DNA from: Escherichia phage WPEC5
Length of the DNA stretch: 64,000 bases
Strand: one strand, 5' to 3'
Sequence record: PV654397.1
In this document: positions 27,908 through 29,493 of the stretch, one piece after another
Layout of the letters: every line of letters starts with the position of its first letter
Numbering within the stretch: position 1 is the first letter of the stretch
Notes under the pieces: generated by a model
Seen by the model: the letters and a program-made list of their open reading frames with translations, nothing else
The model's database searches: none
Told to the model about the DNA's origin: nothing
Made by a program: the position numbers and the translations under genes

Positions 27908-28100
27908 GGATACGCTCACAATTAAGGCAATAAATGCACTCAATGTCAGGTCGCCATGATTTATCAAAATCTTTGTGCTGTTCTTCAGTGTATTCCGAAT
28001 CATCATTGATGGGAAAGAAATCACCAGCACCAGTGGCCCAGTCTGAATCTAAACGGAAACGAGCTAATTGAGTACTGTTGCAATATGGACATTTATTCAA
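27900..28100 (-). CDS. small zinc-ribbon protein (66 aa)
   Basis: CPYC...CIYCLNC Cys pairs. Confidence 0.5.
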   Translation of the reverse strand: MNKCPYCNSTQLARFRLDSDWATGAGDFFPINDDSEYTEEQHKDFDKSWRPDIECIYCLNCERIHD

Positions 28101-28377
28101 AATTTATTCCTTCTAACTGATATACGTTTAATGAAAATGACCCACTATTATTATCGCATCTGAAACACAGTGTTAAAGAACCATTAAAACTAACAACATC
28201 AGTACATATACATTTTTCACCATTGGATATGATAGATTTTCCTATATATAAATCTCTTACTATAGTACGGTAATGTTGCCATAAAAAATAATACACACTT
28301 TCATAGTACTCATCTTTTACATATGACAAGTATAAGAATTTATAAAATACTTGTATTTCCTTTAAGTTGTTTTTCAT
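28093..28377 (-). CDS. DIQFTY-family paralog 1
   Basis: One of five tandem paralogs with N-terminal [KN]-x-I-Q-[FV]-[TF]-Y-type motif. Confidence 0.55.
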   Translation of the reverse strand: MKNNLKEIQVFYKFLYLSYVKDEYYESVYYFLWQHYRTIVRDLYIGKSIISNGEKCICTDVVSFNGSLTLCFRCDNNSGSFSLNVYQLEGINFE

Positions 28378-28648
28378 TCTCCAACTCCAGTAAATTTACA
28401 CCAATCCAACCCTGTCCTTCTGTATATAATTCTAATCGTAGCTTACCACTATGACTGACAACATCTTTACAAGTGTAAATTCTACCATCACGAACAATGC
28501 GAACACTACCGTAATACGCTTTTAATTCATCTAAAAAATCAATCCATATCGTTCGAAAGGTTTCATAATAGTGATAGTCTTTAGGATCAGTATGAGAGTA
28601 CTCCATGTATAAAACTCTATATGTGAATTGTATATCATTAAGATTCAT
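28340..28648 (-). CDS. DIQFTY-family paralog 2
   Basis: MNLNDIQFTYRVLY...; tandem paralog. Confidence 0.55.
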   Translation of the reverse strand: MNLNDIQFTYRVLYMEYSHTDPKDYHYYETFRTIWIDFLDELKAYYGSVRIVRDGRIYTCKDVVSHSGKLRLELYTEGQGWIGVNLLELENEKQLKGNTSIL

Positions 28649-28658
28649 ATGTCAATCC

Positions 28659-28970
28659 TTATAGGTCCGTTAACTTCAAAACTTTGATCTCCATAAATTC
28701 CCTATCAGTTTTTTCAAGAAATTCTACATGGATAATACCTTGATAAGATTTGACACCTGAATATTCGAATATATCATCTCCATCAGTGTAAGTACTGTAA
28801 TTCTTTTTTATATATTCAGCAATAGAATCTAAGTAATCATAGTAATTATGAATAAATGGTGATTCTTTTGATTCTACATGTTCACCAATCTTCCCACTAA
28901 AAAGATACATGTCATACAAACCGTATATATTTTTATATGTGAATTGAACATCATTCAAATTTAATTTCAA
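28659..28970 (-). CDS. DIQFTY-family paralog 3
   Basis: MKLNLNDVQFTYKNIY... Confidence 0.55.
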   Translation of the reverse strand: MKLNLNDVQFTYKNIYGLYDMYLFSGKIGEHVESKESPFIHNYYDYLDSIAEYIKKNYSTYTDGDDIFEYSGVKSYQGIIHVEFLEKTDREFMEIKVLKLTDL

Positions 28971-29227
28971 GGGAATATCTCCAGAGGAACACTCGTAAAT
29001 CCAAAATCTGTGAAGAACTGTACCTCAACTTTACCATCGAGCTTAATGATTATATCTGAAAATTCTGCATGATCGTTATTAATAATTACAGTACTGAATT
29101 TTTCTTTAATCCTCTCACGCACAGTATTAATCATTTCATTACATGTATCTTCTAAAAATATACTATTATTTTTATTTGCTAGGTCACGAATGCACTTGAA
29201 TGTTAATTGGAAATCTTTATAATTCAT
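28967..29227 (-). CDS. DIQFTY-family paralog 4
   Basis: MNYKDFQLTFKCI... Confidence 0.55.
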   Translation of the reverse strand: MNYKDFQLTFKCIRDLANKNNSIFLEDTCNEMINTVRERIKEKFSTVIINNDHAEFSDIIIKLDGKVEVQFFTDFGFTSVPLEIFP

Positions 29228-29493
29228 ATATTCACCAAATCCACAGAGAATAGGTCGTTATCAAATTTATATGAAAGTACTAATCTACCACCGAAACTAT
29301 CTACTCTAAGTATCTTTCGTTTTTTTCCATTAATGACAATTTCAGTATTAACAAAATACTCACGTAATTCTTCTAGATAATTTGACCATATTTTATGGGT
29401 AAACGCATTTTTATTAATTGTGTTAGTACTTCGGTGATTGTGGTGTAATTTAAATAATTCCATATAAGTGAATTGTATATGTTTGTAATTCAT
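29224..29493 (-). CDS. DIQFTY-family paralog 5
   Basis: MNYKHIQFTYMELF... Confidence 0.55.
   Translation of the reverse strand: MNYKHIQFTYMELFKLHHNHRSTNTINKNAFTHKIWSNYLEELREYFVNTEIVINGKKRKILRVDSFGGRLVLSYKFDNDLFSVDLVNI

What the first reader, a model, noticed from the sequence alone, without database searches (positions are those of the whole stretch)
28093..29493. Five tandem paralogs of a second small-protein family (DIQFTY-type N-terminus)
Five consecutive 86-103 aa genes share an N-terminal motif (MNLNDIQFTY, MKLNLNDVQFTY, MNYKDFQLTF, MNYKHIQFTY, and a weaker KEIQVFY) and a similar length and charge pattern. They are followed by a strong terminator. This tandem family is distinct from the FQ family, so the genome harbours multiple independently expanded small-protein repertoires.
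Basis: seen in the sequence. Interest (0 to 1): 0.5.

Follow-up and report, generated by a model that had tools for sequence, protein, structure and literature searches.

The report
Tandem small-protein family in jumbo coliphage
Five neighbouring small genes of a giant E. coli phage, plus a sixth nearby, are real ancient copies of one function-unknown protein family with a shared compact fold; related phages swap them like cassettes, which is a common pattern in giant phages.

Summary
The window comes from a ~350 kb Asteriusvirus (121Q/PBECO4-group) jumbo coliphage. The five ORFs exist exactly at 28093-29493, but on the minus strand (g1 to g5, 86-103 aa). They are true paralogs. Profile searches link g2-g3-g4-{g1,g5}, one PHROG (phrog_21004) hits all five, and similarity survives removal of the N-terminal motif. 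AlphaFold gives a confident fold of two helices plus a four-stranded sheet, with no convincing PDB match.

The family is larger than reported. ORF 27357-27647, beyond a conserved zinc-ribbon gene, has the same fold and is a reciprocal structural best match.

The "strong terminator" precedes the array in the direction of transcription; it does not follow it.

The family is extremely narrow: 17 hits among 1.84 billion representative proteins, all assignable ones from Asteriusvirus, with faint relatives in RaK2. Slot content varies between lineages (5, 5, 3 or 2 genes, different paralog sets). Whole genes are exchanged between lineages. dN/dS (0.19-0.52) is higher than in neighbouring genes (0.05-0.12). 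The proteins are absent from the phAPEC6 virion proteome.

The most likely role is non-structural accessory proteins that bind host or defence factors. That role is inferred, not shown. This is an ordinary kind of finding with moderately interesting details.

The parts
29224..29493 (-). g1, 89 aa, MNYKHIQFTY; first gene of the array; subclade {g1,g4,g5}; pI 9.5
   Evidence: ORF. phrog_32291 5e-31 and phrog_21004 8e-6. Group HMM links to g4 at 9e-11 and g5 at 4e-8. dN/dS 0.22 against 121Q. Shine-Dalgarno sequence AAGGGG upstream.
28967..29227 (-). g2, 86 aa, MNYKDFQLTF; subclade {g2,g3}; its ATGA start overlaps the g1 stop
   Evidence: ORF. phrog_35943 6e-45; phrog_21004 3.7e-4, aligned over residues 26-78 and so not over the motif. 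g3 HMM 1e-5, and 3e-5 without the motif. dN/dS 0.19.
28659..28970 (-). g3, 103 aa, TTG start, MKLNLNDVQFTY; has a longer loop between the two helices
   Evidence: ORF. phrog_21004 4e-35. Links to g2 at 1e-5 and g4 at 7e-5. dN/dS 0.19.
28340..28648 (-). g4, 102 aa, MNLNDIQFTY; the modelled member. Its disordered C-terminal tail is encoded in the 38-nt overlap with g5. The gene body is a recombinant allele of ph0011 type.
   Evidence: phrog_21004 1e-25. AlphaFold2 pLDDT 86.5, pTM 0.74, elements H3-19 H25-46 E50-53 E56-66 E69-76 E80-85, residues 97-102 below pLDDT 50. Over 28350-28600 it is 66-74% identical to Ecwhy_1 but 98-99% identical to ph0011.
28093..28377 (-). g5, 94 aa, MKNNLKEIQVFY; last gene of the five; overlaps g4 by 38 nt and the next gene by 8 nt
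   Evidence: Group HMM links to g4 at 2e-11 and g1 at 4e-8. GGAG lies 7 nt upstream of the ATG. The long form is annotated in G17, Ecwhy_1 and A4. It has 0 differences in 285 nt against 121Q, while other alleles at 57-67% identity exist.
27357..27647 (-). c6, 96 aa, MNIILIQKTY; sixth, divergent member of the same fold family (phrog_28826), lying beyond the zinc-ribbon gene
   Evidence: Family HMM 17.6 bits, while 0 of 6480 composition-matched shuffles reach 15 bits. hhalign P = 1.2e-4 over 72 columns. AlphaFold2 pLDDT 88.2, pTM 0.77, same element order as g4. Reciprocal Foldseek matches at TM 0.70-0.87.
27644..27907 (-). c7, 87 aa (ATG at 27907); possible very divergent member; hypervariable between lineages
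   Evidence: Only 9.6 bits, a score reached by 12 of 6480 shuffles. hhalign P = 4e-5 over 41 columns. The 121Q allele carries a family-like HYIGKSLILNN segment. 32% amino-acid identity to the 121Q allele. Membership is not established.
27900..28100 (-). Zinc-ribbon gene (66 aa, TTG start, CPYC...CLNC) embedded between family members; not a member; the conserved anchor of the locus
   Evidence: phrog_22354 4e-49. 97% amino-acid identity and dS 0.2 against 121Q and A4. It is the only part of the region with DNA similarity to the RaK2/K64-1 group, where K64-1 annotates it as 'transcription factor IIS-like'.
29510..29534 (-). Intrinsic-terminator-like hairpin plus U-run, located upstream of g1 (the 3' end of the preceding 219-aa gene's transcription unit)
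   Evidence: Scan. Fold energy -15.8 kcal/mol, z = -3.86. Annotated on the same strand and in the same position in phage G17.
20313..20609 (-). 98-aa ORF; borderline remote similarity to the family
   Evidence: 18.1 bits with profile fam2, above all 6480 shuffles. It falls to 11.9 bits with the enlarged profile, which equals the top shuffle score. Unresolved.

Best explanation
The locus is an array of ancient paralogs of one lineage-restricted ORFan family. PHROGs lists its subfamilies as phrog_21004, 32291, 35943 and 28826, all of unknown function. The genes belong to an Asteriusvirus jumbo coliphage.

Each gene encodes a protein of about 90 aa. An N-terminal helical hairpin carries the conserved N-x-x-D-I-Q-F-T-Y-K-x-L-Y start of helix 1 and a W-x-x-Y-L segment in helix 2. 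The hairpin is followed by a four-stranded antiparallel sheet with an invariant turn glycine.

The genes are tightly packed or overlapping on one strand, each with its own Shine-Dalgarno sequence, and sit on both sides of a conserved zinc-ribbon gene.

The array evolves in two ways. Paralog content differs between lineages (birth and death of copies). Whole genes are also replaced by homologous recombination between co-circulating phages.

Most likely function (inferred): non-structural accessory proteins made during infection. They would share a common scaffold and possibly a common partner bound through the conserved N-terminal helix. Their diversified surfaces would bind different host targets, such as host takeover factors or defence components.

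Shown here: paralogy, fold, narrow distribution, mosaicism, purifying but relaxed selection, and absence from a virion proteome.
Inferred: time of expression, binding activity and targets.
For: - Paralogy.
- Fold: two independent confident models with the same topology and reciprocal Foldseek matches.
- Narrow range: 27 clusters at 90% identity and 17 hits among 1.84 billion representatives. Most map onto Asteriusvirus loci. RaK2 ORFs flanking the zinc-ribbon gene score 14-17 bits and TM 0.54-0.64.
- Variable slot content: 5 genes in the window, 121Q and ph0011; 5 in A4 but without g2 or g3 types; 3 in JNE01; 2 in RaK2.
- Cassette exchange: sliding-window identity, g5 with dS = 0 against 121Q, and further g5 alleles.
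- Real genes under relaxed constraint: dN/dS 0.19-0.52 against 0.05-0.12 for neighbouring genes.
- Non-structural: the phAPEC6 orthologs gp386c-389c are absent from the 62-protein virion proteome (PMC7247149).
- Context: a long single-strand block of short unknown genes. The related phage CBB has a comparable block proposed to be the early host-takeover region (PMC5259590).
Against: - There is no direct evidence on timing, binding partner or phenotype. No transcriptome of any Asteriusvirus was found.
- No similarity to any characterised anti-defence or host-takeover protein was found.
- Small proteins can be missed by virion mass spectrometry.
- Elevated dN/dS and allele exchange also fit merely dispensable genes.
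- No promoter is evident between the upstream terminator and g1, so the way the array is transcribed is unknown.
Confidence: 0.55

Rival explanations
1. The paralogs are subunits or cofactors of one hetero-oligomeric assembly that works with the embedded zinc-ribbon (TFIIS-like) protein, for example a phage transcription or nucleic-acid-handling complex. The conserved N-terminal helix would be the shared assembly interface.
For: - Overlapping start and stop codons suggest coupled, stoichiometric translation.
- Family members flank the zinc-ribbon gene in both Asteriusvirus and, faintly, RaK2.
- The N-terminal helix is the most conserved part across 16 paralog types.
Against: - Copy number and paralog identity differ between closely related phages (5, 5, 3 and 2 genes; A4 lacks g2 and g3 types), which is hard to reconcile with a fixed complex.
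- Single genes are swapped for alleles 60-70% identical without co-replacement of their neighbours.
- No nucleic-acid-binding motif was found, and the pI values are mixed.
Confidence: 0.15
2. The array is a set of immunity-like neutralisers. Each paralog or allele would block one variant of a polymorphic toxic effector, from host abortive-infection or defence systems or from competing phages. This would be analogous to arrays of orphan immunity genes in polymorphic-toxin loci.
For: - Tandem small alpha/beta paralogs, with allele diversity at single positions: at least four g5 alleles and three g4 alleles.
- Gene-sized exchange between lineages.
- Elevated dN/dS.
Against: - No toxin or effector gene is recognisable next to the array (Pfam and PHROGs on neighbours).
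- No similarity to any known immunity family was found.
- This is a special case of the best explanation rather than a separate, evidenced mechanism.
Confidence: 0.15
3. The genes encode minor virion, decoration or packaged proteins.
For: 121Q-like phages have elaborate virions with many uncharacterised components (PMC7247149).
Against: - The phAPEC6 orthologs are not among the 62 virion proteins detected.
- The locus sits among nucleotide-metabolism and DNA-modification genes (Dam methylase, cytidylyltransferase-like, RNA ligase), not in a structural module.
Confidence: 0.05
4. The shared motif is a chance or compositional artefact of an AT-rich genome, or the ORFs are not real genes.
For: The genome is 30-36% G+C, which enriches for N, K, I, Y and F residues.
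Against: - Reversed and shuffled controls reach at most 6.8 and 14.2 bits, against 86-112 bits for the five genes.
- dN/dS is below 1 for every member.
- The orthologs are conserved across lineages and two AlphaFold models are confident.
Confidence: 0.02

Closest known systems
PHROGs families phrog_21004, phrog_32291, phrog_35943 (and phrog_28826 for c6), all 'unknown function'
   Same: These are the same proteins. g3 and g4 fall in phrog_21004, g1 in phrog_32291, g2 in phrog_35943 and c6 in phrog_28826. phrog_21004 cross-hits all five.
   Different: PHROGs splits the family into several unlinked groups and gives no function. The common fold, the sixth member and the array dynamics are not recorded there.
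[quoted passage not shown]
   Same: Tandem arrays of small, unannotated, phage-restricted paralogs in very large genomes. The same window holds at least three other such families.
   Different: This particular family, its fold and its allele exchange were not described in any of the papers found.
Hyperplastic accessory regions of T4-like phages and clustered anti-defence or host-takeover genes (from my own knowledge; not tested here)
   Same: Blocks of short, fast-evolving, non-essential-looking genes between conserved anchors, with content varying between close relatives and shuffled by recombination.
   Different: No member here has a demonstrated function and no known anti-defence family is present. 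The resemblance is one of genomic behaviour, not of homology.
Small alpha/beta phage inhibitor proteins such as anti-CRISPRs or Ocr/ArdA-type DNA mimics (from my own knowledge)
   Same: Size of about 90 aa and a compact two-layer alpha/beta architecture suited to protein binding.

Membership tests
One homologous family comprising g1-g5 (the 'DIQFTY' family, equivalent to phrog_21004 in the broad sense) | Significant profile similarity over most of the length, not only over the N-terminal motif | tested here: met
   Group HMMs give E from 1e-5 to 9e-11 along the chain g2-g3-g4-{g1,g5}. phrog_21004 hits all five. With the motif removed, E is 1e-7 to 2e-4 within {g1,g4,g5} and 3e-5 for g2-g3; the link between the two subclades weakens to 0.027.
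The same family, membership of c6 (27357-27647) | Profile score above composition-matched noise, and the same fold | tested here: met
   17.6 bits, while 0 of 6480 shuffles reach 15 bits. hhalign P = 1.2e-4. Same H-H-E-E-E-E topology at pLDDT 88. Reciprocal Foldseek TM 0.70-0.87.
The same family, membership of c7 (27644-27907) | Profile score above composition-matched noise | tested here: inconclusive
   9.6 bits, a score reached by 12 of 6480 shuffles. hhalign P = 4e-5 but over only 41 columns. It drops out with the enlarged profile. No structure model was made.
Pfam, NCBIfam or PADLOC curated families | A match at or above the curated threshold | tested here: not met
   No hit approaches a gathering score.
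Any protein of solved structure | Sequence-profile or fold match covering the whole domain | tested here: not met
DNA-mimic anti-restriction proteins (Ocr/ArdA type) | Strongly and uniformly acidic surface, with pI around 4 | tested here: not met
   The pI values are 9.5, 4.8, 4.8, 5.5 and 5.8, and 8.95 for c6. Net charges range from +3.9 to -7.2.
Virion structural proteins | Detection in purified particles | tested here: not met
   The phAPEC6 orthologs gp386c-389c are absent from Table 1 of PMC7247149. Small proteins can escape mass spectrometry.
Polymorphic-toxin immunity-gene arrays | Adjacency to a toxin gene with a variable C-terminal toxin domain | tested here: inconclusive
   The neighbouring genes have no Pfam domain and only unknown-function PHROGs. 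No toxin is recognisable, but absence of annotation is not absence of a toxin.
Early or host-takeover gene class | Transcription in the first minutes of infection, from host-type promoters | not testable with these tools
   No Asteriusvirus transcriptome was found. Sigma-70-like sites in the region are no more frequent than in shuffled sequence: 29 found against 35 +/- 5.6 expected.

The most novel reading that the evidence does not exclude
The array is a swappable arsenal built on a previously undescribed alpha2-beta4 fold. Each paralog or allele would neutralise a different variant of a polymorphic host defence effector or takeover target. The conserved N-terminal helix would dock onto a common partner, possibly the embedded zinc-ribbon protein. 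Gene-sized recombination between co-infecting jumbo phages would re-assort specificities. The window phage and Ecwhy_1 differ at g4 but are otherwise identical across the array (27350-30300), so they would form a natural near-isogenic pair for testing this.
Probability: 0.15. Interest if true: 0.65.

Novelty: new member of a known kind. Interest (0 to 1): 0.33.

Why it matters
Most jumbo-phage genes (83% in phAPEC6) have no known function, and about a tenth are paralogs. This locus gives a clean, well-delimited example for study. It has one compact fold with no solved relative and six or more copies around a conserved zinc-ribbon anchor. It also shows direct evidence that single genes are exchanged between otherwise identical phages. 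If the proteins prove to be target-specific inhibitors, the natural allele swaps provide ready-made genetic contrasts for finding their targets. If they do not, the locus is simply another documented ORFan expansion.

Tried and rejected
- Pfam, NCBIfam, PADLOC and a PDB sequence-profile search: nothing.
- AFDB50 fold search: library not available.
- Rfam on 26500-30500: no RNA family, so the nucleotide-identical g5/zinc-ribbon island is not explained by a known RNA.
- IMG/VR scan: returned only 121Q itself.
- Literature: no paper describes the family or any Asteriusvirus transcriptome.
- Attempt to grow the family into a window-wide superfamily: the enlarged profile adds no further ORF, ORF 20313-20609 becomes borderline and c7 drops out. 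Other tandem families are unrelated by hhalign.
- A weak Pfam hit of c6 to Phage_Gene33 (E 0.0068, 17 bits against a cut-off of 27) was judged to be chance.
- The Salmonella SD-series phages were not used for copy-number inference. Their genomes are 310-326 kb with many fragmentary ORFs and a chimeric g2/g3 protein, so real deletions cannot be told from assembly errors.
- One dN/dS script failed twice on a zero dS value before being fixed.

Full report
**Source and anatomy**

The window matches jumbo coliphages of the genus Asteriusvirus. It is 96% identical to Ecwhy_1, fEgEco12 and WPEC3, and about 80% identical to 121Q and PBECO4.

The five ORFs lie exactly at the stated coordinates, but on the minus strand:
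- g1, 29493-29224, 89 aa
- g2, 29227-28967, 86 aa
- g3, 28970-28659, 103 aa, TTG start
- g4, 28648-28340, 102 aa
- g5, 28377-28093, 94 aa

They correspond to 121Q gp422-426, all annotated as hypothetical.

The junctions are tight. g1/g2 overlap in ATGA and g2/g3 in TTGA. g3 and g4 are separated by a 10-nt gap. g4 and g5 overlap by 38 nt, and g5 overlaps the next gene by 8 nt. Each start has a Shine-Dalgarno-like sequence.

**Are they paralogs?**

- Pairwise BLASTP links g1, g4 and g5 (E 2e-7 to 1e-5). g3-g4 is weak (0.01) and g2 is not linked.
- HMMs built from the orthologs of each gene, searched against all 566 ORFs of the window, close the chain. g4-g1 scores 9e-11, g4-g5 7e-10, g3-g4 7e-5 and g3-g2 1e-5. 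Nothing unrelated scores better than about 0.01.
- One external profile, phrog_21004, hits all five. g3 scores 4e-35, g4 1e-25, g1 8e-6, g5 1.6e-4 and g2 3.7e-4. The g2 match lies in the C-terminal two-thirds of the protein.
- With the N-terminal motif cut off, {g1,g4,g5} still match at 1e-7 to 2e-4 and {g2,g3} at 3e-5. Only the bridge between the two subclades weakens, to 0.027.
- Reversed and composition-matched shuffled ORFs reach at most 6.8 and 14.2 bits, against 86-112 bits for the five genes.
- At the DNA level only the 5' ends, which encode the motif, are still recognisable as repeats: 28-45 nt at 69-82% identity.

**Fold**

An AlphaFold2 model of g4, built with a 25-sequence family alignment, is confident (pLDDT 86.5, pTM 0.74). 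It has helix 3-19, helix 25-46 and strands 50-53, 56-66, 69-76 and 80-85. The last six residues, 97-102, are disordered (pLDDT below 50) and lie in the C-terminal tail encoded by the overlap with g5.

Across 16 distinct paralog types the conserved positions are as follows:
- the start of helix 1 (N2, D5, Q7, F8, T9, Y10, K11, L13, Y14)
- a W-x-x-Y-L segment in helix 2
- an F-x-G segment after helix 2
- an invariant glycine in the turn between strands 2 and 3

**The family is larger than five**

ORF c6 (27647-27357, 96 aa, MNIILIQKTY) lies two genes downstream.
- It scores 17.6 bits with the family profile, above all 6480 shuffles.
- hhalign gives P = 1.2e-4 over 72 columns.
- Its own model (pLDDT 88.2, pTM 0.77) has the same element order at nearly the same positions.
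- The Foldseek matches are reciprocal. The g4 model hits the slurp01 c6 ortholog at TM 0.70/0.74. The c6 model's best non-self hit is the same 89-aa protein that tops the g4 search, at TM 0.81/0.87.

c7 (27907-27644) is only a possible member. ORF 20313-20609 is borderline.

Between g5 and c7 sits a 66-aa zinc-ribbon gene (27900-28100). It is the most conserved gene of the neighbourhood and the only part with DNA similarity to the RaK2/K64-1 group.

**The terminator**

The hairpin plus U-run lies at 29534-29510 on the minus strand, with a fold energy of -15.8 kcal/mol and z = -3.9. It sits between the preceding 219-aa gene and g1, so it is upstream of the array. The phage G17 annotation agrees.

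The next terminator-like site on this strand is at 25828-25809. No promoter-like site fits between the hairpin and g1. How the array is transcribed therefore remains open.

**Distribution**

- The word-indexed search finds 27 clusters.
- The exhaustive HMMER search of 1.84 billion representatives finds 17 hits.
- Most of these map onto Asteriusvirus loci that I fetched. A few (P0029, P0031, P0033) are only 36-47% identical to any of them. P0029, the only one checked against the phage collection, has no close match there.
- RaK2 (genus Alcyoneusvirus) has ORFs on both sides of its zinc-ribbon gene that score 14-17 bits and TM 0.54-0.64. These are probable distant relatives.

**Dynamics**

The slot between the zinc-ribbon gene and the roughly 615-nt upstream gene holds different sets in different phages:
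- g1-g2-g3-g4-g5 in the window, 121Q and ph0011; two metagenomic contigs carry a five-gene array of the same sizes
- five genes in A4, but three g1-like, one g4-like and g5, with no g2 or g3 type
- three genes in JNE01
- two genes in RaK2

Paralogs within one phage are 22-43% identical, so the duplications are old.

Sliding-window identity shows gene-sized mosaicism:
- Across 27350-30300 the window is 100% identical to Ecwhy_1, except over the body of g4 (66-74%). A second divergent patch lies just downstream at 27000-27300. In both places the window is 98-99% identical to ph0011.
- Conversely, g5 plus the zinc-ribbon gene are 95-100% identical to 121Q, G17 and A4, although the flanks are 45-80% identical. 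ph0011 carries a divergent g5 allele.

g5 has 0 differences in 285 nt against 121Q, while neighbouring genes have dS of about 1. Other g5 alleles at 57-67% identity exist. The identity therefore reflects exchange of an allele, not a general constraint. Rfam finds no RNA element there.

dN/dS against 121Q is 0.19-0.22 for g1-g3, 0.52 for g4, 0.18 for c6 and 0.38 for c7. Neighbouring genes give 0.05-0.12. These are real genes under purifying selection, but under weaker constraint than their neighbours.

**Function**

The phAPEC6 orthologs (gp386c-389c) are not among the 62 virion proteins found by mass spectrometry (PMC7247149).

The locus lies in a long single-strand block of short unknown genes, with a Dam methylase, a cytidylyltransferase-like gene and an RNA ligase nearby. 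A comparable block in the related phage CBB was proposed to be the early, host-takeover region (PMC5259590).

I therefore favour non-structural accessory proteins that use a common scaffold with diversified surfaces to bind host or defence factors. This is an inference from genomic behaviour. No experiment or homology supports a specific target. The rival explanations are a fixed complex with the zinc-ribbon protein, immunity-like neutralisers, virion proteins, and artefact. They are weighed in their own section of this report.

**Novelty**

Tandem ORFan expansions are a known feature of RaK2-like and other jumbo phages (PMC3622015, PMC5259590, PMC7824862). The proteins are already in PHROGs as unknown-function groups.

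What is new here:
- several PHROGs are unified into one fold family
- a sixth member lies across the zinc-ribbon gene
- the fold has no solved relative
- single-gene allele exchange between near-identical phages is documented

The finding is a new member of a known kind, of modest interest.

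Noticed in passing
window 28350-28600 and 27000-27300: The window phage is 100% identical to Ecwhy_1 across 27350-30300 except over the body of g4, and also diverges in a second patch at 27000-27300 covering the 100-aa and 60-aa genes. In both patches it is 98-99% identical to phage ph0011. These look like gene-sized recombinant replacements with breakpoints at gene junctions.
   Followed up: partly
window 27900-28350: g5 plus the zinc-ribbon gene form an island 95-100% identical at the nucleotide level to the distant lineages 121Q, G17 and A4. g5 has 0 differences in 285 nt against 121Q, and the zinc-ribbon gene has dS about 0.2, while flanking genes have dS about 1-2. 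No Rfam family lies there. A recombination anchor seems more likely than a nucleotide-level constraint, but this is not settled.
   Followed up: partly
window 27644-27907: c7 is the most divergent gene of the neighbourhood between lineages: 45-52% nucleotide and 32% amino-acid identity to 121Q, with dN/dS 0.38. It sits between two conserved genes. The 121Q allele looks more like the DIQFTY family than the window allele does.
   Followed up: partly
window 41633-63894: At least three other, larger tandem paralog families occupy the right-hand third of the window: 12 members (45461-57963, about 150-210 aa), 9 members (41633-63894, about 100-140 aa) and 5 members (60103-62525). All are unrelated to this family by hhalign.
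   Followed up: partly
window 29540-30199: The 219-aa gene upstream of the array has an extremely acidic C-terminal tail (DLDDDDDDE), net charge -27 and pI 4.1. It appears to be a one-gene unit. A near-consensus sigma-70-like site (TTGACA-17-TATATT, 30199-30171) lies at its 5' end, and the hairpin terminator at 29534-29510 follows it.
   Followed up: no
window 30894-30922: A perfect 12/12 sigma-70 consensus (TTGACA-17-TATAAT) lies on the minus strand inside the cytidylyltransferase-like gene.
   Followed up: no
window 30711-31244: This 177-aa gene is annotated 'ribonucleotide reductase A' in 121Q and Ecwhy_1. In RaK2, A4, ph0011 and Turkey3 it is annotated cytidyltransferase or phosphopantetheine adenylyltransferase. 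Pfam gave no hit at E below 0.01. The RNR label looks like an annotation error that has been propagated.
   Followed up: no
L005 (Salmonella phage SD-1_S14) and P0025, P0027, P0037: The Salmonella SD-series Asteriusvirus genomes (310-326 kb) carry truncated and chimeric versions of the array. One example is a g2 N-terminus fused to g3 fragments (P0025). This could be real inter-paralog deletion or assembly and sequencing error.
   Followed up: no
window 28627-28655: A sigma-70-like site (TTGACA-17-TACAAT, 11/12) overlaps the start of g4. Its -10 element is formed by the codons of the conserved D-I-Q-F motif (ATACAAT), which recurs at the 5' end of g1. This is probably coincidental.
   Followed up: no
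window 27178-27360: A 60-aa ORF immediately after c6 looks like a small protein with two hydrophobic segments (MRALFFIWSLFSLAVLTASGAYSF...LLFPIVGVGLGFTL). It has no PHROG hit.
   Followed up: no
window 20313-20609: A 98-aa ORF about 7 kb downstream gives a borderline match to the family profile: 18.1 bits with one profile and 11.9 bits with the enlarged one. It lies in another run of 80-120-aa genes.
   Followed up: partly
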